Below are positions 35,021 through 60,663 of a stretch of DNA of 64,000 nucleotides, piece after piece. Below the pieces are notes generated by a model, which saw only the letters and a list, made by a program, of their open reading frames with translations, ran no database searches and was not told the DNA's origin. Made by a program: the position numbers and the translations under genes. How positions within the stretch are numbered: position 1 is the stretch's first letter; each line of letters begins with the position of its first letter. This DNA is from Strigamia acuminata (lineage: Eukaryota): contig OX442314.1 of the NCBI GenBank assembly GCA_949358305.1, forward strand, positions 23,746,001 through 23,810,000. Reading direction: 5' to 3'.

Positions 35021-38000
35021 ATGAAGAAAAGACGAAATCAAATTTTGAACCAGAAAAGCGTACCGGTAAGTTGAAAAAGCTTTATTTTTTAAAAAAAAAT
35101 TTCTCAATATTTAATTTTAATTACAATTACAATGAAAATTTTTTTTTAAATACTTAACCAGTTGCAATCAAAAATGATAATTAAAAGAGAAGCAAAAAAA
35201 ATTCGAAATCTAGCAAGCGAATATATTCGTTTGTACGAGATCCAAAATAAACAAACTTTAATTCCAATGTTGAAAACTGCATTGAGTGGAAATTTCAATT
35301 TTTATCGCGTGCGTTGGATAGTAACTATCGTCACTGCGTTAAGCATATGCATCTATCAATGTTCCACCGTGATCAACTACTACTTCGAAAAACCCTTCAA
35401 AGTTCAAACCGAAATTACAGAAGAAACTACTGATGATTATCCGGCAATTTACATCTCTTCAGCCTTTACTGATGATATCATCGCTTTTCAGAAAAATCGT
35501 TCATGGAGCTTGCAAATTAGACGTACAGCAAGATAAACGAATTATTACCGATTCTCAATCAATACAAAAAAATTCACTCCTAATTTTTATTTTATTTTAG
35601 AATGTCGGCAAACGTTTTTATTTGCGGAAGATAACGTCACTACACTACGAACAATAATGGAGAAAAGTAACTTCACAAAAATGATTCAAAACATCACATT
35701 TTTCAGAGTAAGTAAAATTAAATATTTTTTATGAACTACCAGTAATTCTTTTTGAATAAGCAAGTCAACATTTATTTGTTTAGATTAACTATAAATTTGC
35801 TTCATAAAACTAGCAAAATCCATTTTTTTTTTCTTTGTAGGGAAGCAAGAAGGAATACAATTTGTTTGAAACTGAAGAAATGTTCACCATTTATGCAACT
35901 GTAACTAAAGTTACAAATAGTAAGTAAAGTTGATTTATTATAATGGCCACACTAGCAAAATCTCAAATTCAAAGGCTGAAAGTATTCTAATATTGCACAC
36001 CTTCAGTGCATACAATTTCACTTTTATCGATAACTATAAATCAGGGGTGGAGAACGTCCGGCCCACGAGTCGTATATGGCCCGCGAAATCATTTAGTCTG
36101 GCCATGCCAACCACAAGCAGAACTGGGCCAATTTAATTAAACGTTTGAACAAATGTAGCAGGTTTTTTTAATTGATAATTTTGGAAGGTCCACAAATAAT
36201 GCTATAAATATCTAAATAGCTCGTTGCAGAAAAAAGGTTCACCACCCCTGCTATAAATCATCCAATTCGAGTCAGATTGCTCACTTGTTCCAGATAAGTT
36301 AAGACACTAATTAGATAAATGCAGCTCCCACGGTTTTGCCTTTTCATCATTTTGAGGCATATCTGCGAAATACATACATGCAGGTGTGATCCCGAACCAC
36401 ACTGACTTGTGAGTTCAGTCAAAACTCTTTTGGATCATGAGTGGAATGTTTTGTGTAATGTGTCCCTGTGTACCAAATCAAATAGGCCCCATGCAGGGCC
36501 TTTGAGAAAGAATGTTTCCGCCTCAAAGGCGAAACCTGTCATGACAAAATCCGAGAGAATACAGTAATACGAAAAGTATAGCATAATACCACTTTAAGAA
36601 TGTGCCTACTGCTATTAAAATGCAATAATGTTCTTGCACAATAATATCTTTTTGGTGTTGAATTTGATTAAATAGTTAAAAAATTACCAATTGGACCAGA
36701 AAATCGAGTGAAAATTCAGATTCACACAAAAGAGACCTACACTAAAAACCGTTTCCTTCTTGGAGTAAGTAAAAAAAAAAAAATTCGCTCTATACACATA
36801 CAACTTAAAGAAATTAAATAATTTCTTTTGTGTAGGTAACCTTGCAAGCAAAAGTAGTCACACTATCATTTATAATGCCACTGAGCATACACACGGCACA
36901 TTTATTTAAACAAACTTCCTTTGCTTTCACTTCTAAAAGAGTAAGTTTTAATTAGCACTTTTTTACTGACTAATAATCATCTTTTGTTAGTTCACATTTC
37001 TTAATAGAAAAGCCTCTCCATGCGTCCCACTAACTGTTATGGAAGACTGTCACTATAAATGTTACTTGAATTCGATCAATGCTCTGAATTTTACGTGCCA
37101 GTAAGTTAGAAAATCAAATAAAACAAATTTATTACGTAAACTCCATTACTTTACACGTGTGAATTTATAGCTTACCAATATTGCCCCAGGAAAACAAAAG
37201 CGACTGCATTACAAATGAATTGACATGCAATTACACGCGACAATTGGGACGAGTGAGATGGACAATTAACCCCCAATACACTTGCAATTGTCCAAGGGAA
37301 TGCCGTAAAACTGTGGTTACTTCCCATCACTACTTCGACGAATATGAAGAAAAATCAACAAGTTTTTACTCCTTCAGCAATTGGATCCGTACATTGCAAG
37401 AATATTACTCCTACGACTTCATAGCCCTCTTGTGCGACATCGGAGGGTATTTAAGTTTTTATACGGGAATTTCTTGCCTGACACTTACTTACTCAATAGT
37501 CAGCAATATTATGACACTGTCATTCCACCTTAATAAAATCAGTCCGTACAAAAAGCATGTGGTTCAGCAAACTCAAAAAATGATAATGCAGACTGAACAA
37601 GAATTAACAAAGAAAATCCACGACCCATTTTTCAAGCTATTCAACAATATAAAGAAGGCGACAATTCTAATTGGTTTAGTTACTAGCTGCTACTTAATGT
37701 ACGTTCAAAGTGTGTTTTACTTGACCTATCCTACATACGTTACTATAGAACTTGTACAAGACAGAGATGTTCAAATCCCGAGCATTGTTATATGTAGTGA
37801 TAATGCAAAAATATACATGAAAAAAGTAAAAATGCAACAGAAAAAAATGAATGTGCGTTGTTCCGAAGATATAGACATACTCGATTTACTTGATCTATAT
37901 AAAAACGATGCCACATTATTATGGAACACATCTAGCGATTTCATAAACTTTGAAATGGGCAAGGTGCGTTATTGCATTTAGCTAGTATTGCATTTGTTTA

Positions 38001-41000
38001 AATAATCGGGTGTCCCTCCAAGTAAGCCTAGGCTGTTGAGGGGCACCACTGTTATTTTTTAATAAGGAATTAAATTATTATTATTATTATTATTATGACA
38101 ATTTTCAGAACATGGGAAAACAATTTGGAGAGCTAAGTGCTGTTTTACAACCAAGATTTGGGAATATTTCATCTATAGATACTGTGTTTGGAAACTGTGT
38201 TAAAATGGAGTCTGGTAAGAGAACTTATTTATTAGATGCGACCACATATACATTATGCACCCAGGAACTTGATGCCAAATTCGTACTGCACAGTGCACAT
38301 CCCATTTTATAATATGATTTCCTAATTCCAGTCGTTATCTAGCCTGGTAATGCTAAAATAAAGTAAATAAACAACAATAAACTCATTTACAAAATGGAAC
38401 CGAAATTGTGTTGCTTTGTAAGCCACACAAAGCTTGATAATCGCCATGTTAAATGCATGCGCAGAATGTATTGTGCAGTTTGAATTTGGCATCTAGAAAA
38501 AGCTTGCATGATCGGTCTTAGTTTTCGGGTTTGGCCATCTGAACTGGGATCAGACGACCAAGCGGATCTGCAGTCAATCCGCGCGGATAAAATTGTCTGG
38601 ATCCGCAATCCGCAATCCGATACACAAAGTGATGTTTGTTATTTTTCAGCAGTTTGGTGATATTTCGGTCAATTTTAGGCGTTTTCGTAATGAAAACATG
38701 ACAAAAATGTCAAAAAAAATTTTTTTAGGAACTATTAAAAACAATATTATTTTATAGGGTATGTTCAGCACGTGACCTTGCGTTGCATTGTGGGTAAGGG
38801 TTGCTTAGCAACCCTTGTAAACAAATGTCGGCGGCCATGTTGGTGTACAAGGATGCATGTAAACAACAGGGAAATGTATGTTTTTTGGATTTATTTTTAA
38901 AAATACGAAAAATTATGCATCTAATTTTGCAAGTAGATGATTAATAAAGTAAATAACAATAGTTTAGTGATTTGTATATTCATTTCTTGATTATTTTTTA
39001 ATATCAAACGCTCCGTATACTGTAGGTTTTTCAATAGAACGCTCCATATACGTTGAGCATTTTATTATACATATGAATTCACTTTAATTATTTGCCGGAT
39101 TAATATTTGTTCGTTCATTGTTTGTCGTGATTATTATTTGCCATGGTGATTTGTTCTTATACGTTGAGCATTTTTCGGTAGTGCATAGGGAGCCACTAAT
39201 GGAATGGACTAATCGGCAGCTGTCAGCTTTCAGCCGTCGACTGTCGCGGCCGTCAGTCGACAGTCGACCGTCACCTGTCGAATGTCGCGTCCGTCGGACG
39301 TCGACTGTCAGCCGTCGAATGTCGCGGTCGTCAGAAGTCGACTGTCGCGGTCGTCAGAAGTCGACTGTCGCGCCGTAAGCCGTCGACTGTCGATCGTCAG
39401 CAGCGACGGCCGCAACAGTCGGCGTCCGACGGACGTGACAGTCGACAGCTGACGGCCGCAACAGGTCGACGACCAACGGAGACGATAATCGACAGCTGAC
39501 GGCCGACAGTAGACAGTCAGCCATCGAATGTCGCAGCCGTCGACTGTCGACGGTCAGCCGCAACAATCGTCATTCGACAGGTGACGGCCGCGACAGTCGA
39601 CGGCTGACAACTGACAGCTGCCGGTTAATTTCGACTATTTTCGGTTAATTCGAATCGTCAGCTGACGATTAGTCCATCCCTCAGAATAATGGCTACGTAT
39701 TACGTAGCCATTATTCTGAGGGATGGACTAATCGTAGTACGTAGTACGTAGTACGTAATAAAACTTTTGTTCGTTACTTTTATTATAAAAGTAACGAACA
39801 GCCGAACACTCGTCCGGACGTTCGAGCGGGCGATCAGACGAGCGTTCGGGCGGACGAGTGTTTGGGCGTTTGGGCAGGCGAACAGACGAGTGTTTGAGCG
39901 TCTGGGCAGGCGAACGGACGACCGGCGTTTGGGCGGGCAAATGGACAGCCGAACACTCGTTCGGCCGTTCGGACATAACTACAGAACATAATTATAGAAA
40001 AAAAAATACAGTTTTATTAAAAACTAAAAAAAATCTAACAAATTGTTCTTCATTTTATTTACTTATTTCTATCATTTAAACACGCTTAAGGGTTGCTTAA
40101 CAATCACTGTGCTGCACTGCACGGTCACGGTCACGTGACAAACATCCGCCATTTTTTTTGTCACCAACGCATCGTCATATGACGCGTGCTGAACATACCC
40201 TATTGGCAATCCGGGTCAGATCGCCTGATTCCGATTCGCAAAATCTGCTGATGGATTCGGATTGGCGCCGAATATGACCCGATTCGCAAAGAATTCAAGC
40301 TTACTCCGTATTATGATACCCCATTATCCCCAAAATGAAATAAAATAAATTTATGTAGTTAGGCTATCTAAAAATAAGGTTAGTAAATAATAGACAAAAT
40401 TAGCATACGGTAGCAACAGTGGACATATTGAAAATAGTGAATATTGAAGTTAAAAATTAAAAATTTCACTTTTGGTTACCTGTACTGCAGATATCATCGA
40501 GTATAACCCAACGACAGCAATAGCCTTAGCATTTTTTATTTCTAGAGGAATAAAGTGCAATTCACATTCTAAGGTAGTTATTTCATACATGAAGAAATAT
40601 ATATTAATTCGTATTTAATTTGTTTGTTTGTTTGTTGTGAAACACATGTAGACTTTTTTAATGCAAACTGAAGAACGAATTGATTTAAAAACAATGGATA
40701 TTCAACCTCATAACTCTTGGATGAATATGAAATTCATACGACAAACAGTAAGCATCAGTAGTAATATACCGAGCACAATCAATTAGTACTAAACTAATAT
40801 ACCAAGCGCAATGGGTAATTGTCACATGACGGGATAATTAGGTCAGTGTTATGTATCAATAACATCAGTTAAAGCTAGGCTTAAGTGTTGTTAATATGCA
40901 ACAATAACATGTGAACTTATTAACCGAGTAATAATTGCATAGTTGCAACAATTACTCAAGCGCAAGTTGTATTTAACACAAGAATTTACCTACCGGTATA

Positions 41001-41848
41001 CAAAATCTAAAAATAAAAAAATAAAAACACATCCATACCATTGTGAAGATTTCAAATTTGAACCTAACACCATTTGGATTTGTTTGAAACACCCACACGA
41101 AACAACATTTCACTGATGAAAATTCCTGGCACCAGAAATTTTTATCAGTGAAGACCAATCAGATGTTGTCACTGTTTAATTATTAAATTAAATCAATGTT
41201 GTCTGACTCTCCTCATTGTTTGCATAAATTGTTATTTAAACTATTTAACAATCTTCAAAATAACTTAGATGATCCGAATAAACACCCCAACAAACCCTTG
41301 TACACCATCTTTAGAAGCATTCAAACTTTGTGAAGAAAACTGTCTTGAAACCAAAAAGGCAACTGAAAATATCAACTGCAGGTTTGTTATCATATTTTTA
41401 AATTATTATTAGTTAATCTAATTTCCTTTTTATGACAAATCTCCCAAGCTTGCCGTTTATGAATGCCACCAATGTGCCACCATGCAAAACAATTGCAGCA
41501 GCAAAATCAGCAAGAACTTCGTACCTCAAAGTTTACGCAAATAATGATGCTATTCGCGACTGCAGCTGCTCGCCCCCTTGCAACTACACAATTTTCATAC
41601 CATTTTCTGAGTATTACCAAACGTTTAATATGCTGAGTTTAATGGTGATAAAATTAGAATTCGAATCCAACATCCGTGAAATTTTTAAGCAAGAATTAAC
41701 AATTAAATTGACCAAATTAGTTTGCGATTTTGGATCAATCACAGGCTTCTTTTTGGGAATATCTGTTTTGTCAAGTTTAGAATATTTAGAAAACTTTTCC
41801 AGCTCTGCTGTACAATTCAAACGCCAACTTAAGAGAGGGAGAAATTAA
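35021..41848 (+). CDS. Double-module DEG/ENaC (pickpocket/ASIC family) channel protein, gene A, 13 exons, about 828 aa
   Basis: Exons 35021-35065, 35162-35522, 35601-35707, 35841-35919, 36676-36764, 36836-36940, 36991-37100, 37171-37963, 38109-38214, 40491-40573, 40652-40747, 41269-41381, 41449-41848 splice in frame. Module 1: TM1 WIVTIVTALSICIYQ, post-TM1 YYFEKP..YPAI, thumb CNCPREC, TM2 LLCDIGGYLSFYTGIS. Module 2: TM1 ATILIGLVTSCYLMYVQ, YLTYPT..IPSIVIC, TVFGNC, CSCSPPC, TM2 LVCDFGSITGFFLGIS. Confidence 0.88.
36042..36250. mobile_element. hAT-type MITE in an intron of DEG/ENaC gene A
   Basis: CAGGGGTGG...CCACCCCTG termini; perfect 8-bp TSD CTATAAAT. Confidence 0.85.
38756..40201. mobile_element. 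Non-autonomous DNA transposon (AT target duplication, ISL2EU/Harbinger-like) with nested GTCGAC-rich foldback repeats, in intron 9 of gene A
   Basis: AGGGTATGTTCAGCACG ... CGTGCTGAACATACCCT termini; the empty site AATATTATTTTATTGGC is at about 48325-48341 in gene B. Confidence 0.75.
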
Positions 41849-44800
41849 ATTAATAGTCTATCTCCCATTCATGCAAACTTCTGAATGTACACGTTCTATA
41901 TAAACGATAATTTCCAGCATTTTGTAATCACACATCGCTTGTAAAAATAAAATGTACAATTTCTTTCATCACAACACATGATCTCGTTCTTGTAAGTTGT
42001 ATTTGTATTTGTATTGGTCCACGATACCCTTAATTTAATGTTGTGGACCAATACCCATCCCCAAGCCATTTTACTATTGGGATGGTTTTTCCGTATGGGT
42101 ATCGGTCTAAAACATTAAATTAAGGGTATCATGGACCATAACACTAATACAAAAGTATTGGAGGATTGTTATGCTTCCATTTGCAGATGATAAACTGCCT
42201 TTGACATGGATATTTCAGCAGAATAATGATTCTAAGCATAAAGTCAAGTCAATTGCTCAGTGTTCTAAACCCATTACATGTAGGCTTTGACTTGGCCTTC
42301 ACAATCACATACAATATTTTGGTTCTCCAACAAAATATTGAAATGTGTTGTTCAAATAAACAATGATTTTCTGAAGAAACCGGTTTTTTTTTGTGATTTT
42401 TTGAATGTGGTGTTAAAATTTTTCTGCCGGCCCAACTCACTTAAGCGTGGTGGCCAAATACACTTGTGCCAAGTAGCGCATATTCAAATGGAAATAACTT
42501 TTGACCTATTTAAATTAAAAATTCATTCTTTTTTTAAAAAATAAAGCCCAATGTTTGTTCTTTAAGCTACATTTGTTTTGATTAGAAGCATCTTTTAGGG
42601 TTTGAATTTCACCATTTTATTTTTTTTAACATTAAAATATACATGCGGCCCAATACACATGGGTGCGGGTAGTACATGCGTTGTCCGAAAAGATATGGAG
42701 GCGAAAATAGGGACTGTAATGTGGTCTGGCTTCCTAAAAAGGCACTCCATGGTCTGCATTTTGGAACTTGTAGCCCTTTTTCTTCGAGAACCGACAAATC
42801 TGCCTCTGCTCACATAAATATCAAAACCCTGTAAATGTTTAATTGTAATTTTCTTTAATGAATCTGGTGTCGATTGGCAATTGTCAATAAATGTCTAACT
42901 GACACTATCTTTTTGGCCACTGGTTCTATTGTTTGCTTTTCACCAAAGATTACCCGATTGAGTAATCACTTGCCCCATGCCCTTCAATTCTAAGTTAAAG
43001 GGCCCCGGTGCACATACAAAATAAAGTGATTAATTTTTTGAGTTTATGCTATTTCTTTGGTTTTTGATAAGATTTGGGTTCTTTACTTCGTGGCAGTATT
43101 TGCGTATTGTCTTCATTAATGCCATACAGCTAAAAGTGCTCATTCTGCAATTGGCCGCTGCAATCTATCCAAAAATAATTTTTCTTACGCTGATTATTAG
43201 TTTTTATAACAGTGGCAAGAAAATTCATCAAATATTTAGTTCGAATTACTTTTATTTAAAAAAAATCTGTAAACTGCAAAAATATAAATTGTAAAAAATA
43301 TTGGCTTACGTTTTCACAAAAGTAACAAGAAAATTGAATTTAAATCATCACATTCCGAGAAAGCAAATGCATATAATAAACTTTATGGTAATGATGAATA
43401 TTACAAAAAAAAGCCACTTGCAATCTTACTCCATAATTGGCTCACGCAATCTTACTCCATAATTGACTCACGCAATCTTGACCTAAAACCCGTTATTGCA
43501 CATGATAGAATCACTCCTGAATTACTCCGCAGTTGCCACGAAGACGAGGCCCTCGTGCATTGTGCAGCTGTTTGAATTTATATGAACATGCAACATGATG
43601 ATTTTGACTAATAATTTTGCGCACTGATTATAGTACATGTATTTTAAATCAAACTGTGCAGCCATAGCGCTGAGAAAACATAACATTCTGCATTTCTGCG
43701 AGTGCCAGTGAGAGAGAAAGGTTCTTATTCAGATAATTCTTGTTTGACTTAAACGTAAGTCCAATTACGCGTAATTTCTCAAAAATCCTACTCCGTATTA
43801 GTTTTCATTTTTATTCTCAATTGTCTTCGTACGACTTGTTGTCGCTAATGTATACGTCGCTAAAACGTCCCGTTTTTTCCGAAATTTGCTATCTGGACTG
43901 TCGCTAAAGTGACCTATTCCGGTACAGACACGAAACGAATTTTAGAGGCGTTTTTGACTTTTTGAATGCAGCTAGTGTGTAAATTACTTTAATATCTAGA
44001 TACGGTTGTTTCAATTATTAATTAATTAATATATTGTTTATTTCCAAGAAGGAGGGGTGCCCCTAACCAGCCGAAGCCTACAAGGAGGGATACCCCAGCG
44101 TATAAACATCCAACCATACACTCAAACCTCAAAACAAAAATTTTATATTAATATCTGTTGCATTTCCGCATGTATGATATACCGGTATGCACTGTTAACT
44201 CATGTGTTACACATCAGTCAAAGGATAATGAAAAAAAAACTAAATCAAATTTCAAACCAGAAAAACGTACCGGTAAGTTGAAAAATTTTTCATTTTTAAA
44301 AAAAAAAAATTCTCAGTATTTAATTTAAGTTACAATTATGTTCATAATATTTTTAATTTTCTTAACCAGGTGCAATCAAAAATGATAATTAGAAGAGAAG
44401 CAAAAAAAATTCGAAATCTAACAAGCGAATTCATTCGTTTGTACGAGATCCAGAATAAACAAACTTTAATTCCAATGTTGAAAACTGCATTGAATGGAAA
44501 TTTCAATTTTTATCGCGTGCGCTGGATAGTAACTATCGTCGCTGCGTTAAACATATGCATCTATCAATGTTCCACCGTGATCAACTACTACTTCGAAAAA
44601 CCCTTCAAAGTTCAAACCGAAATTACAGAAGAAACTACTGATGATTTTCCGGCAATTTACATCTCTTCAGCCTTTACTGATGATATCATCGCTTTTCAGA
44701 AAAACCGGTCATGGAGCTTGCAAATAAGACGTACAGCAAGATAAACGAATTATTATTCTCAATCAATACAAAAAAATTCACTCCTAATTTTTTTTTCTTT

Positions 44801-45589
44801 TAGAATGTCGGCAAACGTTTTTATTTGCGGAAGATAACATCACTACACTACGAACAATAATGGAGAAAAGTAACTTCACAAAAATGATTCAAAACATTAC
44901 ATTTTTCAGAGTAGGTAAAATTAAATTTTTTTTTGAACTACCAGTAATTTTTTTTGAATAAGCCGAGTCAACATTTATTTGTTTAGATCAACTATAAGTT
45001 TGCTTCATAAAACTAGCAAAATCCATTTTATTATTTTTTTTATTTTCTTTGTAGGGAAGCAAGAAGGAATACAATTTGTTTGAAACTAAAGAAATGTTCA
45101 CCATTTATGCAACTGTAACTAAAGTTACAAATAGTAAGTAAAGTTGACTTATTATAATGGCCACACTAGCAAAATTTCATATTCAGAGGCTGAAGGCATT
45201 CCTACGGTACAGTAATACACAAAGTAAAGTCTAAATCACTTTAAGAATGCACCTACTACTATCTAAATGCAATAGTGTTCCTGCACATTAACTTTTTGGT
45301 TTTTAATTTGATTAAATAGTTAACAAATTACCAATTGGACCGGAAAATCGAGTGAAAATTCAGATTCACACAAAGGAGACCTACACTAAAAACCGTTTCC
45401 TTCTTGGAGTAAGTAAAAAGAATGCGCAATACACACATAAATTAAAGAAATTAAATACTCCGTAATTTCTTTTGCATATAGGTAACCTTGCAAGCAAAAA
45501 TAGTCACACTATCATTTATAATGCCACTGAGCATACATATGGCTCATTTATTTAAACAAACTTCCTTTGCTTTCACTTCTAAAAGAGTA

Positions 45590-46559: not shown

Positions 46560-48908
46560 TAAGTGTTAATTAGCAATTTTTTACTGACAAATAATCATCT
46601 TTTGTTAGTACACATTTCTTAATAGAAAATCCTCTCCTTGCGTCCCACTAACTGTTACGGAAGACTGTCACCATAAATGTTACTTGAGTTTCATCAATGC
46701 TCTGAATTTTACATGCCAGTAAGTTAGAAAATCAACTAAAACAAAATAATTAAATAATTACTTTACATGTGTGAATTTATAGCCTACCTATATTGCCCCA
46801 GGAAAACAAAATCGACTGCATTACAAATGAATTGACATGCAATTACACGCGACAATTGGGACGAGTGAGATGGACAATTAATCCCCAATACACTTGCAAT
46901 TGTCCAAGGGAATGCCGTAAAACTGTGGTTACTTCCCATCACTACTTCGACGAATATGAAGAAAAATCAACAAGTTTTTACTCCTTCAGCAACTGGATCC
47001 GTACATTGCAGGAATATTACTTCTACGACTTCATAGCCCTCTTGTGCGACATCGGAGGATATTTAAGTTTTTATACGGGAATTTCTTGCCTGACACTTAC
47101 GTACTCAATAGTCAGCAATATTATGACACTGTCATTCCACCTCAAGAAAATCAGTCCGTACAAAAAGCATGTCGTTCAGCAAACTCAAAATATGATAATG
47201 CAGACTGAACAAGAATTAGCAAATAAAATCCACGACCCATTTTTCAAGCTTTTCAACAATATAAAGAAAGCGACAATTCTAATTGGTTTAGTTACTAGCT
47301 GCTACTTAATGTACGTTCAAAGTGTGTTTTACTTGACCTATCCTACATACGTTACTATAGAACTTGTACAAGACAAAGATGTTCAAATCCCAAGCATTGT
47401 TATATGTAGTGATAATGCAAAAATATACACGAAAAAGGTAAAAATGCAAAAGAAAAAAATGAATGTGCGTTGTTCCGAAGATATAGACATACTCGATTTA
47501 CTCGATCTATATAAAAACGATGCCACATTATTATGGAAGAAATCTAGCGATTTGAAAAACTTTAAAATGGGCAAGGTGCGTTACTGTTTAATCGGTGTCC
47601 CTCCTTGTAGGTCTAGACTGTTGAGGGGCACCCCCCTTAATTTTTAATAAGGAATTAAATTATTATTATTATTATGACAATTTTCAGAACATGGGCAAAC
47701 AATTTGGAGAGCTAAGTGCTCTTTTACAACCTAGGTTTGGAAATATTTCATCCATAGATACCGTGTTTGGAAACTGTGTTAAAGTGGAGTCTAGTAAGAG
47801 AACTGCTTTATTAGATGCGACCACATATACATTATGCACCCAGTATCTGGATGCCAAATTCGTACAGTACAGTGCACATCCCAATGTACAGCGCACTTCC
47901 CATTTTATCAAGACGGTTTCCTAATTCCAGTCGTTATCTAGCCTGATAACGCTAAAATTAAGTAAATAGACTACAATAAACTCATTTACAAAATGGAACC
48001 AAAATTTTGCTGCTTTGTTTCCTTTGTGTGCCACAAGCTTGACAATCGCCATGTTAAATGTGTTGTGCTGTTTGAATTTGGCATCTAGAAAGCTTGCATG
48101 ATCGGTCTTGGTTTCGGATTTGGCCATCTGAACTTGGATCAGACGGCCAAGCGAATCTGCATTCAATCCGCGCGGATCGAATTGTCTTTATCTGAAATCC
48201 GATACGCAAGGTGATGTTTGTTATTTTTCAGTAGTTTGGTGATGTTTCGGTCAATTTTAGGTGTTTTCGTGACGAAAACATCAGAAAACTGTCAAACAGA
48301 ATTTTTTAGAAACTTCTCAAAAAAAATATTATTTTATTGGCAATCCGGGACGGATCGCCTGATTTCGATCCGCAAAATTTGCTGATCGATTCGGATTGGC
48401 GCCGAATATGACCCAATCCGAAAAAAATTCAAGCTTACTCAGTATTATTATGATAGCACACTATCCCCAAGATGAAATAAAATAAATTGATGTAAGTACG
48501 CTCTCTAAAATTAAGGTTAGTAAATAATAGACAAAATTTGCCTACGGCAGCAACAGTGGACATATTTCAAAAAAGGAATATTAAACTTAAAAATTAAAAA
48601 TTTCACTTTTGGTTACCTATACTGCAGATATCATCGAGTACAACCCAACGACAGCAATAGCCTTAGCATTTTTTATTTCTAGAGGAATAAACTGCAATTC
48701 ACATTCTAAGGTTTCAAATTATTTCAAACATTAAAAAATAAATATTAATTCTTATTGAATATGCTTGTTTGTTTGTTGTAAAACACATGTAGACTTTTTT
48801 AATGCAAACTGAAGAACGAATTGATTTAAAAACAATGGATATTCAACCTCATAACTCTTGGATGAATATGAAATTCATTCGACAAACAGTAAGTATCAGC
48901 AGTAATAT

Positions 48909-49010
48909 ACCAAGCACAATCAGTTAGTACTAAACTAATGTACCGAGCACAATCAGTTAGTACTAAACTAATGTACCGAGCACAATCAGTTAGTACTAAA
49001 CTAATATGCC
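48909..49010. repeat. Three tandem 33-bp units in an intron of gene B (one unit in gene A)
   Basis: ACC(A/G)AGCACAATCAGTTAGTACTAAACTAATGT repeated. Confidence 0.85.
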
Positions 49011-49149
49011 AAGCGCAATAAGTAATTGTCACAAGTCGGGATAATTAGGTCAGTGTTAAGTAACGATAACATCTAAGTTAAAGCCAGGCTTAAGTGTTGT
49101 TAATATACAACAATACCATGTGAACCTATTAACCGAGTAATAATTATAT

Positions 49150-49726
49150 TGTGACGGGTGCAGTCTTCTCCATAGCAATCTAGGAATTGGTTACCGTGAG
49201 TGGGACTAGACCTCATGTAAATATTGGAGACACAGACTCCGGGTTGTTGGTTGTTGGCCTTTAATCCGTTGTCTAGGAGTCAGAGTTCCCATCATCCGTG
49301 TCGGCGATACCAGTAAGGCATGCCACACCCGCAACCGACCCGTCACACGCAGGGCTTTAGCCCGTGAGTGACATGGTTGGATAACACATAACATTTTGCT
49401 GTAGAACTCACCTACAGCCCATTTAGTCGCTCATGAAGGCTGCAACACGCACATCTTCCCATCACTGAGCGTCACAGTGGTGAATGGGAGGAGAGAACAG
49501 TCAACTCGGGCACTGCTGCCCAGGCTGGCTATGGGACCTCACAAGCACATGTCTTCTCCCTGTGCTGTCCAAACTCTTCCTCTCTCTCTCTCTCCTCACC
49601 ACACCACTCAGCTCCCTCCCTCCCTGGCTGGGTCAGTCCACACCACAAGGGTGGATGACCTTAGGGCCAGTGAGCAGTGTGTGGAGTGACGTACTGTAGA
49701 TCACCGTGGGTGGCCAGACGGTCACA
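49150..49726. mobile_element. Solo LTR in intron 11 of gene B, same family as 24157-24740
   Basis: TGTGAC...GTCACA termini, ATAT/GTAT flanks; empty site in gene A at about 40930-40946. Confidence 0.8.
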
Positions 49727-50047
49727 GTATAGTTGCGACAATTACTTAAGCGCAAGTTGTATTTAATCCGAAAATTTACCTCCCGGTATACAAAATCTAA
49801 AAATAAAAATAAAAACATATCCATACCATTGTGAAGATTTCAAATTTAAACCGAACACCATTTGGATTTGTTTGAAACACCCACAAGAAACAAGATATCA
49901 CCGATGAAAATTCCTGGCACCAGAAATTTTTATCAATGAAAACCAAGCAGATGTCAAATATGGTTTGTTATCTACTTCAAAATTGTTCAGCTGCAAGATG
50001 ACTGTTTTCTAACTCTTCTCATTGGATGTGATTTTATGACTTACAAG

Positions 50048-50509
50048 TATACTCTGGCAGAGTATAAGATTGCTCATTGTTCATTGGTCCAGCCTGATTA
50101 CTTGTAACTGTGGACTGTGTACTACCACCAGGAAAAGTTTTTTTGTTATGTTTTTAATTTGCTGGATTATTATAATGAGTGAAATGATGTAAGTTTATTA
50201 TTTTTTTATAATAAAATGTTTATTCAATTCAAAAAATAATGTTTTATGTTGTCAAAATACATGTTTGTTCGGTTGGTTCTGCAGCAGAACCAACCGAACA
50301 AACATGTAAGCAGAACTTCTGCTTATTGGTTGCTTTGTTAGGAAAGCAAGCAATTTTTTAATTTTTTTATTGGTTGTTTTGCCTAGAAAGTATTCAAAAT
50401 ATCAGCCAGTGTTTTGATCTATTTTTTGGGATTACTACACTAGTGAAAAGGCCGGGCCAATAGGAAATAGCGCAACCTTATACAAGTACAAGTACTCTGC
50501 CAGAGTATA
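50048..50509. mobile_element. MITE (TATACTCTGG family) containing a perfect 25-bp-arm palindrome
   Basis: TATACTCTGGCAGAGTA ... TACTCTGCCAGAGTATA termini; absent from gene A. Confidence 0.7.
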
Positions 50510-53500
50510 GATAGTGGTAAATTGACAACACATTTATGTTTGCCTAAATTCTTATTTAAACTATTTAACAATCTTCAAAATAACTTAGATGATCAGAATA
50601 AACACCCCAACAAACCCTTGTACACCATCTTTAGAAGCATTCAAACTTTGTGAAGAAAACTGTCTTGACAACTGAAAATATCAACTGCAGGTTTGTTATC
50701 ATATTTTTAAATTATTATTAGTTAATCTAATTTTCTTTTTATGACAAATCTCCCAAGCTTGCCGTTTATGTACGCCACCAATGTGCCACCATGCAAAACA
50801 ATTGCAGCAGCAAAATCAGCAAGAACTTCGTACCTCAAAGTTTACGCAAATAATGATGCTATTCGCGACTGCAGCTGCTCGCCCCCTTGCAACTACACAA
50901 TTTTCATACCATTTTCTGAGTATTACCAAACGTTTAATATGCTGAGTTTAATGGTGATAAAATTAGAATTCGAATCCAACATCCGTGAAATTTTTAAGCA
51001 AGAATTAACAATTAAATTGACCAAATTAGTTTGCGATTTTGGATCAATCACGGGCTTCTTTTTGGGTATATCTGTTTTGTCAAGTTTAGAATATTTAGAA
51101 AATTTTGCCAGCTCAGCTGTACAATTCAAACGCCAACTTAAGAGAGGGAGAAATTAAATTAATAGTCTATCTCCCATTCATTCAAACTTCTGAATTTTCA
51201 CGTTCTATATAAACGATAATTTCCAGCATTTTGTAATCACACATCAATTGTAAAAATAAAATGTACAATTTCTTTCATCACAACACATCATCTCTTTCTT
51301 ATACGATTAAGTTGTTTTTGAGTTGAGATGGCCGTCAATTTGAACGCGACCAAGCCTTTAGATTGAATAATGAGAATAGCAAAATAAAAAGTTCGTCTAC
51401 CGGACATCAATAAACTGCACCGTTATAGTACACAAAGCAGTCGCAGTATAAATTTCGAATATTTCGAATGTAAAAAAAGGTAAAAAAAACTTACATTTCG
51501 GATGAAAACTTGTAAAGCTGTGCATTATTAGTTGGACCTAAACAGTTCGATGCAGGTTAGACCAGCGCAGAACAATGCGCATTAGATCGGCGCAGAACGA
51601 TGTGCAATAAGCCTGTGCAATAAACTGCGCAAAGCGATGCTCAATAAGCCTGTGCAATAAACTGCGCAAAGCGATGCTCAATAGTAGCTCTGACTATACG
51701 TCATAAGAGCTGCTGAGGATCCTGTTGCATTTTTGGAAAGTGACATAGAATGACAAATGAAGTGTTTTGCATTTAGATCAAACTCATTCAAGCAACTCCA
51801 ACTTCATAAAGTTGACTTTCTTTGAAATTAGAAATTGTACGTTACATCTGGTGAATTATTCATTATTGAAAAGTAACATGAATAACAGATGTAGAATTTT
51901 GCATTTAGATTAAACTCACGCAAGAAAATTCAACTTTTAAAAATAATTTTCTTTGAAATTAAAAATTATACAGTACATCTGGTGAATTATTCACTGTTGG
52001 AAAGTGTTGGAAAGTGTTGGAAACATGAATAATAGATGAAAAATTTTGCATTTAGATTAAACTCATGCTGTATCCGATCACTTCAGTGACCATTGTGAAG
52101 TTGTCAACTGGAGAAAACAGTAAGTTAAATTTTGAATTTAAGATACAGTGTACTCTGTACGGAATGAACAGTGCTCACCCGGAAAGCTGTGTGATCCAGA
52201 CCGGTTTGCTGGACCCAACCTATACCCAGTAATGTTAAATTCTCTTTCCCCGTCTGTTAATCCAGACAACTTTCTGTGACCAGTCTTACGACCAAGCTAC
52301 ACTCTACACCGTAGATATAAAGAATGAAACTGGTTAATTTTTTAAATAGTTTTTCTGTGATTCAGTGGATGGAAAGTAGGTGTAGTAGTTTTGTGAGTTG
52401 GGTAGGTAGTCGAGCTGACCAGTGCCTCAGGGTGTTTCCTTGGTCAAAATGCAATCAGTTTACACCGGTTTGCAACAGTTTGTCGTAATCTGGTGTACGG
52501 TTAAAAGCTCTTTTAATAAAATCTTACTTAGAAATTGATATACGTTTGATATAATTAAATAACTTTTCTGTAACTGTTTTCTGTTAACTGTTGTTTCACA
52601 GCAACACAAAATGTCAAAATGTAATACATGTGCAGTTCGTAGGCAACTAGGCAATACGTATATTTTACGGAGTACTGAGCAGTACTGAGCTGTACTGCAC
52701 ATGCGACGTATGCTAGCGACATACTGTGGAAGAAAAAGTAAGCTGCGAAATACAGACCAAGCAAATTATTATGTTAGGAATGGCTGGGTAGGGATGGGTA
52801 TTACAAAAAAAAGCCACTTGCAATCTTACTCCATAATTGGCTCACGCAATCTTACTCCATAATTGACTCACGCAATCTTGACCTAAAACCGGTTATTGCA
52901 CATGATAGAATCACTCCTGAATTACTCCGCAGTTGCCACGAAGATGAGGCCCTCGTGCATTGTGCAGCTGTTTGAATTTATACGAACATGCACCATGATG
53001 ATTTTGACTAATAATTTTGTGCACTGATTATACTACATGTATTTTAAATCAAACTATGTAGCCATAGCGCTGAGAAAACATAATATTCTGCATTTCTGCG
53101 AGTACCAGTGAGAGAGAGAGGTTCTTATTCAGATAATTCTTGTTAGACTTAAACGTAAGTCCAATTACCGTACGCGTAATTTCTCAAAAATCTTACTCCG
53201 TATTAGTTTTCATTTTTATTCTCAATTGTCTTATGGGACAGTTGTATTTTTTGGATAAAAATGGATCTCAGTGATGCGAGACCAAAATAATGCTAAGTTT
53301 AATTGCAAAATGAGCGCGGAATAGTTTTCTGACCATATTTCATTTTAATTCGCAATTAAATATATAAAGTGTGTAACGGTTTGGAATCATAAAAGCCGAA
53401 AATTTGTGACATCATAGCATATGTATCACATATGTTTCACAACATCTCGGCAGGAATTACGTCATCCGTTCGTGACCGGAACGTATATTACGGTTCCAAA

Positions 53501-53564
53501 CTGTCACAAGTTTCATTTTAATTTAATTCTTTTCTAATTTACAGCACGAACAGTAAAAACAAGC

Positions 53565-56500
53565 ATGCGTGTCGGAAGAGAAAATAATGTAATTAAAAAA
53601 ATTACTAAACAATATCAGGATTTGTATGAAGAAACAGATGTTTCGATAGTAAAGAATGTGATGAACACCAACTTTTCACCAATTTACCGCATGGGTTGGC
53701 TGATAATTGTTATCACTGCATTTTCTTTGTGCACATATCAGTGCTATGAAAGGATGGCTTATTACTTGAGTAAACCAATAAAAGTAAATTCTGAGATAGA
53801 AGAAAAGTCATTGGATGATTTTCCTGTACTGCATCTAGCCACTATAATTACGGATGACAGTCATGCTTATTATTCTGCCCGTAATGCTACTAAATACAAA
53901 GGTATTTACTCATAACTAAACAGTAGTGTGAGTACAGTTAGTTTTCAGGCTCCATTTATTCCCGCACTAATTGCTCCCAGATTTCCACTGAATAAATATT
54001 GAATGACCCACCAACTCCTTTTCCCACTAAACATCTTTTTTTTAACCCACTTATTTATTTACATCCAAAATAATTAAATTCTTCACTAAAAATAATTTAT
54101 TTTTTATATTATACAACTAATGCCATCTTAACTTTAGATGGTCTTTCCCTTTTAGTGGAGTATTCAATTTTTTGGGATATTGTAAAGTAAGTAAGCTTGG
54201 GTCAAAAAAAATTTTTAGTGGGAAAAATAGGGGTTGAGACATTAAATATTTTTTAGTGGTAAACTCAGGAAGAGTAGGGGTGTAATAATATATCCCCTAA
54301 GTTTTCTGACCAAGCTCAACAATCATTTACATTTAGTGCGCAAAAAAATCACATGAAATCATCTGGTGCATTTAATAATTGCAATGAAAAGTGACTCCTT
54401 AGAATGGTCATTTAGTCGCAAGATTGTATTTATTGAGAGCAAGAAATGAATTTAAAAAAATTGGATATTTTGCTAAGTATAACGCAAAATATAAATTATA
54501 AAGAGGCAATAAATGTTGTTAACTATAAGCTCATCAATACATTGTTGAGTTTGGTCTTGTCAGCTAATTGGCTAATTTGCTAATTTGGGTTGCCTGATTG
54601 GAATAACTATAAAATCTAAACAATAGTCAATAAAATATTCGATAATAACTTATCTATTTTTTTCAGCATGCGCTCAAACCTTAGCTTTTAAGTTGGATAA
54701 TCACACATCACTGCGCAAAGTGATGGAATTAAGAAATTATACAAAAATGATTAAAAAAGTGTCCTTCCAATGGGTATGTAAACTGCAGTTACAGTAGGCC
54801 ACTAGTGACAAAATTATGAAAAACCTGTAAAATGCAGAAATATTTCAATTGATATTTTTCCCCATCTCATTATAAGTTGCTAACATCTATTTTACAGGGA
54901 ACCAAAGTATATGACAATTTGTTTCAAGCATATGAAAAATATACCCTCTATTCCAGCGTAACAAGAATTGAAAGTGGTACGTCTTAACATATTTTTACAT
55001 ATTGTATAAACAATGCCGCATTATCGTATCATTCGTATAGTCCAGGGTCCCAAATTTTTAGGGGGTCCCATTTCACTCAATAAATTATCAAAAAAAAAAA
55101 TTTAATGAATTTGATATTATCATTTGGTGCTTGGGGGCCTAGGGTCCACAAACACCATGATGCGCCAGTGTGAGTAAATATACAGTGAGGGCAAAAACTA
55201 AGGTTACTGGACTACTGGACCGATATCCATACAAGAAACCATCCCCAAGCCATTTTACTATTGGGATGGTTTTTTTATATGTGTATCCGTCCACCCCATT
55301 AAATTAAGGGTATCATGGACCAATATACTAGTACTTATAAAAAAGTATTGGTGGATTGTTATGCTTCCATTTCCACATGATAAACTGCCTTTGACATGGA
55401 TATTTCAGCAGAAAAATGATTTTAAGCATAAAGTCAAGGCAATTGCTCAGTGTTTCACATTGACATTGCTTGTGGTTTGGATGTTTTAATGAAGTGTATG
55501 AGTGACTACACGTGTGTTTATGGATAAATTTTAATATTTGCCGCATATTTTATAACGGGAATGACTAATTGTTTGTGGATAATGGGTCTGTTTCCTTACT
55601 TTTTGCCTGTAATTTTTGATGTCACTTCACAAAAGAATTTCTTTCTCAGAAACTGATGGATAGATGTTGATAAAATTTTAGGTGAATAAAGTAAGAAGTT
55701 GTACGAGTCTCCAGTTAAAATTTCATAAATTTTCCTCTCTTTTTTCCCGAGATACAGCCATAAGAATCAACATGATGCGTTTGTTAACTTAGTTTTTGCC
55801 CTCACTGTAACAATATTTTGATTTTCAAAAATTCTCTAATTCTCTGATTACACAGTTAAAAAAGTATCGGTTGGTCCAAAAGCCAGGCTTACAGTTAAGA
55901 CACACACAACTGAAAACTTTCCTTTGAATCAGTTAATTGTACATGTAAGTGAAAACTAAACCATTAAAACTTGTAAACTACAAACAAAATAAATATCTTC
56001 CAGATGAATCTGGCAGCAAAAAACTACCACCTGTCCTTTATACCTGCAACAGCATCTCGTTTGGCTCACATGTATTATCAAAATGAGCTTTCTTTTACAA
56101 GTAGAAGAGTGAGTGAATAAAACATTGGAAAATTTTATTATCAAATTCACTCATTTCAAATGTTCTAGTACTCATTTTTGAACAGGAAGACATGTCCGTG
56201 TTGGAATATATCAGCCATGGAAGAGTGTCACGAAAAATGTTATTTAGACGAAATAAAGAATCAAAATTTTTCATGTCAGTGAGTACACTAGTGTTGGCAG
56301 TGGTGATTTTACAGCATTTGAGGCCAGTGCAAGGGGTACGAAATAGGTGTAAACTGTGTACGAGATTCCTGATTCCCAAAGATTCCAACAGATTCTCAAG
56401 CATGGGATTGAAATAGGTTGGAATAGATCACATGTTTTAAACATTGAAATAGATTAATAGATTTTTGAATAGATTGTGCTTATAAAAATCAAAATACAGT

Positions 56501-59372
56501 CAGTTCAAAAAGTTTATAAGAATCCAAATTTTCTTGAGCACATCATTGTTTGAACTTGGTGCTCGTCGAGGTATCCCCTGTCATCGAGGACGTCGCGTAC
56601 GTGTGTCCTGTATGCGGCCAGATGTTCTCGTTGCACGACCGGCTCGCCAAACGCATGGCGAGTCGGCACCGGCACCGCGGACTGGGCGCGGGCGGCGGGT
56701 TGTTTTTTAAAATTCAGAGCGGAATTGGAACCACCCCAAACATCAAATATCGAATATTTTGGAGTGGAATTGGGAGGAAGCGGAATTGGGACGAGCTGAT
56801 TTGAATTGCATCGAGGCGGAATTCCAACTTTTTTTTACTGAAAGGGGCAGTTTAGGAACTGGCGAAATTGATTCTGGCCACTCCACACCATTACTTTAGC
56901 AGAAATTTTTACAGTTTGTTGCAAGCCATCTGGGTGGCTAGTTTCATGTTTGAGTCTCCAAATATTCCCACTAAAAACATGATTTTATCACTAAAGCAAA
57001 CATCTTCTCATTGTTTAACTATGAAATGCTTATATTTTAAAATCTAATTAGCAAAATGCAAAATACGACCAATAAGCGTGATTCTAGTAAAGCTAATTTT
57101 GTTTGTTAGTGAATCCAACAGTAGCCTTTAATAGAAAAAGAAAATGCCCCCCCCTCCCTTTCTACAATCTTTGTTTGTACAACATTTCAGCATGCCATTC
57201 CTGCCGAAGGAAACTGATGATGAAGAATGCATCTCAAATCAAATAGCGTGTAACTACACAGAAACACTTGGGACAATTCGAATTAATATCAACCCACCAT
57301 ACTCCTGCAAGTGTGCGAGAGAATGTGAAAAAACAGTCATCACTTCTCATTACAGCTATGATAAACTCGAAACAAACAAAACAATCGTTTCCTCCTACAG
57401 CAACTGGATACTTGAATTGAAAGAATATTACTGCTACGACTTTATCGCTCTCCTGTGTGATGTTGGGGGTTATTTAAGTCTCTACACAGGAGTATCCTGT
57501 ATCGCTATTGTCCATTTGTTATTTCACGACGTCAAGAAAACAATCCAAAAGTTATTATTTGTTGCCAGAAAAAACCCATTCGAAACCAAAATTATTTCCA
57601 AAATTCAAAGTATAATGTTGAAAAGAAAACGTCGTGCAGAAAAGCAGATTCAGCCAGATGACAAGCAGTGGGAGAAAATCAAAATAATTTTCATACTATT
57701 GTCATTCATTTTCAGCTGCTATTTAATATACATCCGAGTCGTACATTATTTTGGATTTCCTGTATATGTTACTATTGAGCTTGTTCAAGATCGGTACGTT
57801 GAACCACCTACGATAGTATTTTGCTCTGAACATTCAAACATATACGAGGAAAAAGAAAAGTTCATGAATAGTTCTCGAAGTAATGCCTCAAATACTTCTG
57901 CTAACGTTAAATGCGTTGAAGATGTAGACATATTAGATTTGCTCGATCAATTCGAAAATGATGCTGAGGAATTGTGGGAAGCAACGGGTGATTTAGAGAA
58001 CTACGAATTTTTTGTGGTAAGAAATGTCGATTATTAAATGGACAGTTGCATTCAAACACGTTACTTACAAATATTTACAACTACAGGAGTTGGGGAAAGA
58101 GTTCGGAAAATTTTCAGCAATGTTTAGATTCAACTATGGAAATATGTCCTATATTGATACCGTATTTGGAAAATGCATCAAAGTAGAATCAGGTACAGTC
58201 GTAGACAAAAAAACCTTCCCTTCAGTTTAGCTTTTTTAAGTTTATTTATCATTATTTGCCCGGTCTATCTTTTAATACTGTTTGTTGGGGCAAGACGAGA
58301 AACCGGGTCAAGATTGATGTCATTGAAACTCAATGGATTTTTATACCACCTGGTAGGATAAACTTAACACAGCTAAACTGAAGGGAGTATAGCATCTGTC
58401 TTGTGCATTAAACTTGTAATTTTGTCGTTAAATAAGTCTGCTTGATCCCTTCAGACTGAACAAAGATTTATAATTCCCTTTCTATTCTTACATTTTAATA
58501 GGGCGTGTAGAATATAATCCTGTAAGTGCTGTAAACGGTATGGGGTTCATGGCTGGAGGAATTCGTTGCAACGCACACACCAAGGTAACTCATAATATAT
58601 TTCAGTCAATAGTTTCGAATGATTCACTTGATGGATTTTAATTTAGTTATTTTTAATGAAATCAGAAGAACGATTGGATTTTATATCGTATAATATTCAG
58701 CCCCACGACGTATTAATGTACATACAATTCTCAAGAAAAACAGTAAGAGCAAAGAAAATAGAACTTATCTTCTATTTATACTAATTAATTTTATACTTAT
58801 TAATTTTATACTAATTTTAAAAAATTAGACAGATAAATTAAATACACCAAAAAACCCATGTACTACTTTAGAAATATACACAAAGTGTGAAGAGGACTGT
58901 ATCAACACTAAAATGGAAAATGAAAATATAGCATGCAGGTGTGTATCAATGGGTATTATCCGACACTCGTTTTAATTGTAAATGATTAAAATGTATTAGC
59001 TTGCCATTTCTTAACTGGACCAATTTACCTAAATGCAAAACACCAGCCGATGCCAAAGCAACAAGAAAATCGTTTATTAAAGTGCACAGTGATGGACTTC
59101 GCGATTGCAACTGCCGCCCTCCGTGTTATTATACTGCTCACTCAAGTTTGATTGACTATAACCCAGCAATGGATGACAAAGGTTTTGTTTTAACAATGTA
59201 TGAATTTGACGGTAACATTCGCGAGATTTTTAAAGACGAGTCAGCTGTGCCATTTATCAAATTACTGTGTGATATTGGATCGATTTTTGGCTTTCTTCTC
59301 GGACTTTCTATTCTGTTATGCTTTGAATTACTCGATAAGTTTCTGCACCATATTAAAAATAAATTAAATTAA
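53565..59372 (+). CDS. Double-module DEG/ENaC channel protein, gene C (divergent paralog, apparently intact; a short upstream exon is possible)
   Basis: Same exon order and intron phases as gene A. TM1 WLIIVITAFSLCTYQ; TM2a LLCDVGGYLSLYTGVS; linker and TM1b IIFILLSFIFSCYLIYIR in the same exon; YFGFPVY..PPTIVFC; TVFGKC; TM2b LLCDIGSIFGFLLGLS; stop at 59370-59372. Confidence 0.87.
55183..55807. mobile_element. Tc1/mariner-type MITE in an intron of gene C
   Basis: CAGTGAGGGCAAAAACTAAG ... CTTAGTTTTTGCCCTCACTG termini, TA TSD. Confidence 0.85.
56595..56700 (+). other. Isolated GC-rich C2H2 zinc-finger coding fragment in an intron of gene C
   Basis: AYVCPVCGQMFSLHDRLAKRMASRH has CxxC-x3-F-x5-L spacing, with Arg (CGC) at the first His position; GC content is far above the intron background. 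Confidence 0.6.
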
Positions 59373-60300: not shown

Positions 60301-60458
60301 AAGAATTAACAATTAAATTGACCAAATTAGTTTGCGATTTTGGATCAATCACGGGCTTCTTTTTGGGTATATCTGTTTTGTCAAGTTTAGAATATTTAGA
60401 AAACTTTGCCAGCTCTGCTGTACAATTCAAACGCCAACTTAAGAGAGGGAGAAATTAA
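60301..60458 (+). pseudogene. 3' fragment (second TM2 and stop) of a fourth A/B-type DEG/ENaC copy; homologous 3' flank continues to about 61213
   Basis: Near-identical to 51000-51157 and to the downstream 51158-51630 region; no upstream exons. Confidence 0.85.
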
Positions 60459-60663
60459 ATTAATAGTCTATCTCCCATTCATGCAAACTTCTGAATGTAC
60501 ACGTTCTATATAAACGATAATTTCCAGCATTTTGTAATCACACATCGCTTGTAAAAATAAAATGTACAATTTCTTTCATCACAACACATCATCTCTTTCT
60601 TATACGAGTAAGTTGTTTTGAGTTGAGATGGCCGTCAATTTGAACGCGACCAAGCCTTTAGAT

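What the first reader, a model, noticed from the sequence alone, without database searches (positions are those of the whole stretch)
35021..59372. Natural concatemer DEG/ENaC channel: two channel modules fused in one polypeptide, in three tandem genes
Seen: inside one exon (37171-37963 in gene A, ORF 46793-47647 in gene B, ORF 57144-58037 in gene C) a DEG/ENaC TM2 (LLCDIGGYLSFYTGIS) runs without a stop through a linker of about 45 aa into a second TM1 and post-TM1 signature (YLTYPTYVTIE..IPSIVIC). A second ectodomain and TM2 follow, giving a predicted 4-TM protein of about 828 aa. The junction is open in the divergent gene C, so it is neither a merge of neighbouring genes nor a single stop-loss. 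Established: DEG/ENaC/ASIC/pickpocket subunits have 2 TMs and assemble as trimers. Inference: a two-module chain cannot form a trimer alone, so it needs a single-module partner (2+1), leaves a module spare, bridges channels (3 chains forming 2 pores), or adopts a non-trimeric state. I do not know of a characterised example, but I cannot search the literature.
Basis: partly seen in the sequence, partly recalled or inferred. Interest (0 to 1): 0.92.

Follow-up and report, generated by a model that had tools for sequence, protein, structure and literature searches.

The report
Naturally chained DEG/ENaC channel subunits
These genes, likely from a soil centipede, join two different DEG/ENaC ion-channel subunits in one reading frame, so the predicted four-helix protein would fill two of the three places of a channel pore, and related predicted proteins in shrimps and crabs join three, an architecture I found in no paper searched.

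Summary
The junction is real. One exon carries TM2, a 45-47-residue linker and a second TM1 without a stop in all three genes. Genes A (828 aa) and C (806 aa) splice GT-AG into two full modules. Gene B is broken: an 11-nt deletion in module 2 and an element in a splice donor.

It is a family, not an accident. 29 of 51 search hits carry the junction, and 20 are named Strigamia maritima models. Modules 1 and 2 are 19% identical and form separate groups in trees, which fits one old fusion. The pore is asymmetric: the gate glycine is kept in 27 of 27 module-1 helices and replaced in 10 of 11 module-2 helices. Decapod crustaceans have three-module proteins, several on contigs barely longer than the coding sequence.

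Best reading (0.45): the chain fills two places of a trimer and a single-module subunit fills the third. Not shown: any centipede transcript, the assembly state, or a current. No prior description was found in nine searches.

The parts
35021..41848 (+). Gene A, predicted intact two-module DEG/ENaC, 828 aa; exons 35021-35065, 35162-35522, 35601-35707, 35841-35919, 36676-36764, 36836-36940, 36991-37100, 37171-37963, 38109-38214, 40491-40573, 40652-40747, 41269-41381, 41449-41848
   Evidence: all introns AG/GT, no internal stop; two full modules, residues 58-421 and 460-814
37171..37963 (+). Gene A junction exon: end of module-1 thumb, TM2, basic linker (about 37493-37658), TM1 of module 2 and start of its ectodomain
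44228..51157 (+). Gene B, recent duplicate of A (94% amino-acid identity per module), disabled; truncated at 686 aa
46783..47575 (+). Gene B junction exon, open
45588..46561 (.). Element with 23-nt perfect terminal inverted repeats, inserted in the exon-6 splice donor of gene B
50589..50690 (+). Gene B exon 12, 11 nt shorter than in A; frameshift and stop in the module-2 thumb
53565..59372 (+). Gene C, predicted intact two-module DEG/ENaC, 806 aa; exons 53565-53901, 54667-54773, 54898-54976, 55856-55944, 56004-56108, 56169-56278, 57191-58016, 58087-58192, 58502-58584, 58647-58742, 58829-58938, 59000-59372; nearest row is S. maritima T1JBK6
   Evidence: modules at residues 10-393 and 439-804
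57191..58016 (+). Gene C junction exon (linker about 57513-57681)
60301..60663 (+). Remnant of a fourth copy: last TM2 and 3' tail only, 97.5% identical to gene B 51000-51363

Best explanation
Genes A and C have one open reading frame through two different DEG/ENaC modules; the predicted four-TM chain likely fills two neighbouring places of a trimeric cation channel, and a separate single-module subunit would fill the third (2+1). Shown by sequence: the open junction, two full modules, conservation across a large Strigamia family, purifying selection, matching intron phases and the asymmetric gate residue. Inferred: one old head-to-tail duplication or fusion joined the last exon of one gene to the TM1 exon of the next. 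The short basic linker, cytoplasmic by topology, fixes which two modules sit together and in what order. Module 2, with Ser, Asn or Ala at the gate glycine, is tolerated once per pore. The third subunit most likely comes from another gene; an exon-skipped single-module form of the same gene is also in frame. A sensory role (heat, acid or chemical) is a guess from the nearest solved relatives, BRTNaC1 and PDPNaC1.
For: Open junction and intact models. Two full modules per gene. 29 of 51 hits carry a TM2-to-TM1 junction, 20 of them named S. maritima. Module 1 against module 2 in one gene is 18.5-18.6% identical, against 43% and 46% for like modules of A and C. Module-1 and module-2 rows each form one group, SH-aLRT 88 and 94 and 91 and 97 under the mixture model. 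5 of 5 module-2 introns match module-1 introns in phase and lie within 0-6 alignment columns. dN/dS is about 0.3 overall. No splice site in the linker is conserved between A and C, and 5 of 23 parsed linkers have no Met. The gate site (cASIC1 G436 = PDPNaC1 G375, a 0.39-A constriction, PMC12714832) is Gly in 27 of 27 module-1 helices and not Gly in 10 of 11 module-2 helices. AlphaFold2 on the full two-module homologue T1JD34 gives pLDDT 78 and pTM 0.72, and both halves match DEG/ENaC structures. Three-module decapod proteins show the same principle taken to a whole pore.
Against: No centipede transcript or peptide was seen; every full-length two-module homologue I could name is an automated S. 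maritima model, and one of them (T1JBK6) has a merged-looking N-terminus. No partner subunit was identified. Engineered two-subunit ASIC1a fusions give currents with no added partner, though lower-mass products were also seen (PMC4529235). Full-length UT-A1 gave trimers mostly of its N-terminal half (PMC10541013). Both precedents favour self-assembly. That Ser at the gate cannot be carried twice is an inference; 1 of 11 module-2 helices keeps Gly. I could not see the model's coordinates, so pTM 0.72 suggests a defined packing but does not show a two-thirds-trimer geometry, and the model is of a homologue only about 22-29% identical to the window exons.
Confidence: 0.45

Rival explanations
1. 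The full chain is made and assembles with itself. A second chain lends its module 1 to complete the pore and leaves a module 2 spare, or three chains build two linked pores.
For: Two-subunit ASIC1a fusions conduct alone. Tandem UT-A1 forms trimers dominated by its N-terminal half. A second module 1 would supply the gate Gly.
Against: Module 2 is conserved as strongly as module 1 (ectodomain dN 0.42 against 0.48 for A-C), which fits a used module but not which chain fills the third place. Three chains in two pores needs a pore with at least two module-2 copies, which the gate residue disfavours (inference).
Confidence: 0.27
2. The gene is read or processed into single-module subunits (internal promoter, exon skipping from module 1 to module 2, or cutting of the linker), as the UT-A gene gives half-length forms, and the full chain is minor.
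For: All 5 of 5 module-1 to module-2 skips tested are in frame in A (427-436 aa) and in C (394-403 aa). 18 of 23 parsed linkers hold a Met. A and B have a moderate acceptor in the linker (5.3-6.9).
Against: Module 1 has no stop after TM2 in 27 proteins. Gene C lacks the linker acceptor (3.1 at most) and no linker donor is shared by A and C. Module-1 TM2, which all skips remove, is the best conserved part (dN 0.28 for A-C, 0 for A-B). The in-frame skips follow from the duplication alone.
Confidence: 0.13
3. The chain does not conduct on its own account and acts as a regulatory or scaffolding pair of subunits for other DEG/ENaCs.
For: No HG motif in the parsed linkers or before TM1 (read by eye). 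Module 1 of A and C lacks the acidic residue at the E18' selectivity site (Tyr, His).
Against: PDPNaC1 also lacks HG and conducts. The Asp at 0' and the GxS motif are kept in both modules of A and C, and module 2 of A and C keeps E18'.
Confidence: 0.08
4. Two chains form a four-module pseudo-tetrameric pore.
For: It uses every module with no partner. One cross-linking study argues for ASIC1a tetramers at the cell surface.
Against: The review read describes the solved family members as trimers, PDPNaC1 is a homotrimer, and the decapod chains have three modules, not two or four.
Confidence: 0.07

Closest known systems
[quoted passage not shown]
   Same: Best solved matches by sequence (E 2e-13 and 2e-10 for T1JBK6) and by fold (Z 21.7 and 20.7 for module 2 of the T1JD34 model); similar module size; PDPNaC1 also lacks HG.
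   Different: They are single modules of 431 and 421 aa with two TMs; PDPNaC1 is a homotrimer. Here two unlike modules lie in one frame. Orthology was not tested, as their sequences were not in my trees.
Engineered ASIC1a and ENaC concatemers
   Same: Head-to-tail joining of TM2 to the next TM1 gives working channels (PMC4529235; PMC5449180).
   Different: Those are laboratory constructs of whole subunits. Here the join is natural, old, trimmed to 35-63 residues and links modules only 19% alike.
Urea transporter UT-A1 (SLC14A2)
   Same: A natural tandem of two modules in a family that assembles as trimers, so the same counting problem arises (PMC10541013).
   Different: Unrelated fold; each UT module has its own pore, whereas a DEG/ENaC pore needs three modules.
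Heterotrimeric ENaC and heteromeric pickpocket channels
   Same: Unlike subunits give an asymmetric pore (established knowledge, recalled).
   Different: Their subunits are separate polypeptides; here two are predicted to be locked in one chain.
Tandem-domain channels of the tetrameric superfamily (K2P, TPC, Nav/Cav); recalled, from no call
   Same: Internal duplication fixes subunit order and lets modules diverge.
   Different: Two divides four but not three, so a two-module DEG/ENaC cannot close a pore by simple dimerisation.

Membership tests
DEG/ENaC module (Pfam PF00858 ASC) | Match to PF00858 above the curated cut-off | tested here: met
   7 of 7 ORFs at 27-44.6 bits against 23.6; two full-length hits per gene with a local profile
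DEG/ENaC module (Pfam PF00858 ASC) | Two hydrophobic helices flanking a large ectodomain | tested here: met
   Four segments per gene, Kyte-Doolittle 19-mer means 1.33-2.41, 6 of 8 at 1.5 or more; a simple hydropathy scan, which also gave one extra ectodomain peak in A
DEG/ENaC module (Pfam PF00858 ASC) | Cysteine-rich thumb | tested here: met
   Aligned Cys series in both modules of A (273-343, 669-740) and C
DEG/ENaC module (Pfam PF00858 ASC) | TM2 with Asp at 0' and GxS motif | tested here: met
   GIS and GIS in A, GVS and GLS in C
DEG/ENaC module (Pfam PF00858 ASC) | Hand-like fold | tested here: met
   On homologue T1JD34, not on the window proteins: module 2 Z 21.7 with 8ymw, module 1 (38-392) Z 11.7-12.7 with FaNaC and ENaC chains
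Canonical DEG/ENaC subunit | One module (two TMs) per polypeptide | tested here: not met
   Two modules in one frame; hence filed as a variant, not as a canonical subunit
Canonical DEG/ENaC subunit | Pre-TM1 HG motif (common, not universal) | tested here: not met
   Absent from 23 of 23 parsed linkers and from the N-termini of A and C (by eye); PDPNaC1 lacks it too
Canonical DEG/ENaC subunit | Trimeric assembly | not tested
   No complex prediction was obtained, and a full 2+1 complex exceeds the 1000-residue limit
Canonical DEG/ENaC subunit | Cation current, amiloride block | not testable with these tools
   needs electrophysiology
BRTNaC1/PDPNaC1-type centipede sensors | Single-module channel gated by heat or protons | tested here: not met
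   Architecture differs; gating not testable

The most novel reading that the evidence does not exclude
Arthropods have repeatedly evolved genetically concatenated DEG/ENaC channels. One is a large centipede family of two-module chains that work as fixed two-thirds of a pore with an exchangeable third subunit. Another is a decapod family in which one polypeptide of three unlike modules is a whole pseudo-trimeric channel, the DEG/ENaC counterpart of the single-chain Nav/Cav design.
Probability: 0.5. Interest if true: 0.93.

Novelty: new variant of a known kind. Interest (0 to 1): 0.86.

Why it matters
DEG/ENaC subunits are described as two-TM chains that form trimers, and concatemers have been laboratory tools. 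A natural two-module family with about 20 members in one centipede, and three-module chains in shrimps and crabs, would change that description. They would give ready-made asymmetric pores for asking what each of the three positions contributes to gating and selectivity, and a direct test of trimer against tetramer. Surveys that filter on two TMs or on length, or that treat long models as annotation merges, would have missed them.

Tried and rejected
RNA evidence: no RNA holder listed; this says nothing on expression. The two runs listed (X1, X2, one study, possibly the window's source) cover 30 of 30 bins including introns. None of the 15 joints shown has GT..AG ends (13 more not shown), and no indel is listed in either junction exon laid or at gene B's deletion. 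That is weak, since A-type contigs can take up such reads, so gene B's deletion is not verified in reads.

No whole genome is held, so copy number, partners and other loci in this species are unknown.

The structure of the three-module protein P0054 gave pLDDT 59 and pTM 0.37; its fold matches ASIC chains but it says nothing on a single-chain trimer. The Atlas search with part of T1JBK6 gave only ASC clusters of 376-598 aa; the one with P0054 did not complete.

Independent origins are suggested but not shown: AU tests did not reject centipede modules 1 and 2 as one clade (p 0.595), nor centipede plus decapod modules as one clade (p 0.229). The third test and the careful tree did not finish; supports quoted are SH-aLRT from quick trees. 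Rows dropped: of 82 modules, 4 short ones and the 12 from four decapod proteins for (66 left); 21 more for (45 left).

Rejected: assembly or annotation merge (junction inside one exon, shared with S. maritima); single stop-loss (27 module-1 helices without a stop); recent internal duplication (19% identity between modules). Hits P0029 (repeat) and P0042 (ankyrin/WD40 merge) are not concatemers; P0011's junction lacks the linker and looks like a model error but is counted among the 29. In one search the third TM2 of P0058 was parsed out of register. Three look-ups in the scan's earlier findings returned nothing.
Full report
OBSERVATION. Six-frame translation shows the three junction ORFs. I built exon models from splice sites. 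Gene A (35021-41848, 13 exons) gives 828 aa and gene C (53565-59372, 12 exons) 806 aa; all 23 introns are AG/GT and neither has an internal stop. In both, one exon (37171-37963; 57191-58016) carries the end of a thumb, TM2, a basic linker of 45 or 47 residues, a second TM1 and the start of a second ectodomain. PF00858 hits 7 of 7 ORFs above its cut-off. A profile from nine apparent single-module proteins finds two full modules in each gene. Gene B (44228-51157) is 94% identical to A per module but disabled: exon 12 lacks 11 nt, giving a stop at 686 aa, and a 974-nt inverted-repeat element sits in its exon-6 donor. Its dN/dS against A (0.027/0.093) looks like that of a working gene, so the damage is likely recent. 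A fourth, tail-only copy lies at 60301-60663.

NOT CHANCE, NOT A MERGE. The junction lies inside one exon, so no gene finder joined it. A linker-length stretch of intron-like composition stays open 1-2% of the time. The same junction is in S. maritima proteins at 66%, 36% and 37% identity, which places the window most likely in a geophilomorph centipede. The deeper search gave 51 hits; 29 carry TM2 followed within 80 residues by TM1. Twenty of these are named S. maritima UniRef models; the other nine were not looked up. T1ITL7, T1JD34 and T1IPM9 are full two-module models of 791-907 aa. All are automated models whose DNA I did not see.

ORIGIN. Within a gene the modules are 18.5-18.6% identical; between A and C like modules are 43% and 46% identical. 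In trees all module-1 rows form one group and all module-2 rows another (12 and 19 rows, SH-aLRT 88 and 94; 8 and 13 rows, 91 and 97, mixture model). All five module-2 introns match module-1 introns in phase and place. The simplest reading is one old head-to-tail event that joined one gene's last exon to the next gene's TM1 exon, followed by wide duplication of the fused unit. Whether the two parents were sister copies is open (AU p 0.595).

WIDER PATTERN. Two other multi-module sets appeared. The first is a S. maritima clade (T1ITG7, T1IU28, T1IZL2, T1IL99) with two to three similar modules, grouped at 100 with apparent single-module proteins; these could be real or merged models. The second is in decapods. 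Halocaridina rubra KAK7013173.1 (1289 aa) has three modules. A search with it gave 10 proteins of 951-1289 aa, 9 of which show three TM2 hits. Named members are from Halocaridina, Petrolisthes and, through cluster membership, Penaeus vannamei. The unnamed full-length Logan and ENA members (970-1050 aa) lie on contigs of 3,244-5,168 nt, in several cases leaving little room for introns (1050 aa on 3,462 nt), so those frames are not made by joining genes; I cannot tell whether the contigs are RNA or DNA. The middle module is short in most of them (about 210 aa in P0054) and full in the Halocaridina query. Each decapod position forms its own group, apart from the centipede family in the free trees, but a common origin is not rejected (AU p 0.229).

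PORE. Using the PDPNaC1 numbering (D372, G375, S376, G378, G382-A-S384; PMC12714832), the lower-gate glycine is kept in 27 of 27 module-1 helices and replaced in 10 of 11 module-2 helices (Ser 7, Asn 2, Ala 1). In A and C the G378 site is Ser in module 1 and Gly in module 2; in PDPNaC1 the G378S change raises sodium preference. The E18' selectivity site (PMC5449180) is Glu in module 2 of A and C but Tyr or His in module 1, and it varies across the family. The modules are therefore specialised, and the pore would be asymmetric. Four decapod proteins whose three TM2s were all parsed in register keep Gly at all three gates.

STRUCTURE. The spliced window proteins could not be folded, so I folded the homologue T1JD34 with a 41-row alignment: pLDDT 78, pTM 0.72, the linker partly helical and of low confidence. 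Best matches are BRTNaC1 and PDPNaC1, and both halves align to DEG/ENaC chains. A pTM of 0.72 suggests the modules pack in a defined way, but I could not inspect the geometry. The three-module model was poor (pTM 0.37).

MECHANISM. Shown: frame, modules, conservation, selection, gate asymmetry. Inferred: the full chain is made (about 0.85) and fills two neighbouring places of a trimer. The third place must come from somewhere. A separate single-module subunit is my best reading (0.45 overall), because module 2 looks limited to one copy per pore and single-module relatives exist (such as T1JKA6). Self-assembly is the main rival (0.27), with precedents in ASIC1a dimers that conduct alone and in UT-A1. 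All five module-1 to module-2 exon skips are in frame, so the gene could supply its own third subunit; this follows from the duplication and is not evidence that it happens. Splitting at the RNA or protein level (0.13) has no conserved signal. A sensory role is a guess from relatives.

NOVELTY. Nine full-text searches listed no paper whose title or abstract start describes a natural multi-module DEG/ENaC; I saw listings only for most. One search was for UT-A. Passages read: PMC12714832, PMC9974506, PMC5203786, PMC8438182, PMC7067487, PMC4529235, PMC5449180, PMC10148893, PMC9822975, PMC10541013 (passages 40, section 6 in 99). PMC4244043, the S. maritima genome paper, has 0 hits for six channel terms in its main text. 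PMC8438182 reports 46 insect pickpockets (8%) with three to five predicted TMs and never uses fused, fusion or chimeric. I opened no supplements; those of PMC4244043 and PMC8438182 could bear on this, and most subscription papers are not in the library. The sequences themselves sit unremarked in UniRef and GenBank as uncharacterised proteins.

VERDICT. Real, conserved and apparently undescribed: a tandem variant of a known channel family, with three-module relatives that raise its weight. The gaps are a centipede transcript, the assembly state and any function. Interest 0.86.

Noticed in passing
proteins P0049, P0053-P0061, P0048, P0072, P0078 (not in the window): Decapod family of three-module DEG/ENaC proteins (951-1289 aa; Halocaridina, Petrolisthes, Penaeus and unnamed Logan/ENA contigs): candidate single-chain pseudo-trimeric channels, most with a shortened middle module.
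   Followed up: partly
proteins P0049, P0053, P0054, P0056, P0058, P0059, P0061, first TM2: 6 of 7 decapod first modules have Ser at the site of PDPNaC1 Ser376, the proton-block residue that its paper calls unique among relatives.
   Followed up: no
proteins P0007, P0015, P0016, P0037: Second S. maritima set with two to three similar modules, grouped with apparent single-module proteins; a younger concatemer set or merged models.
   Followed up: partly
protein P0001 (T1JBK6) residues 1-132: The N-terminus repeats module-2-type pieces before the module-1 thumb; by eye a model that merges two tandem genes.
   Followed up: partly
window 3760-31730 (+): Tandem array of at least six astacin metalloprotease genes (6 of 6 active-site ORFs hit PF01400; one CUB hit at 4513-4722; EGF-like exons by eye).
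   Followed up: partly
window 6143-7012 (-) and 2008-2340 (-): Glycosyltransferase family 11 (fucosyltransferase-type) ORF of 290 codons inside the astacin array on the opposite strand (E 1.5e-68); the second stretch resembles it by eye but has no Pfam hit.
   Followed up: partly
window 12372-12590 (-): Isolated Neuralized (NHR) domain fragment.
   Followed up: no
window 62084-64000 (-): Open retrotransposon pol frame (RNase H, integrase) running off the window end.
   Followed up: no
window 39200-39990 and 5287-5920: A GTCGAC-rich repetitive insert in gene A intron 9 (absent from B) and a long short-period tandem repeat.
   Followed up: no
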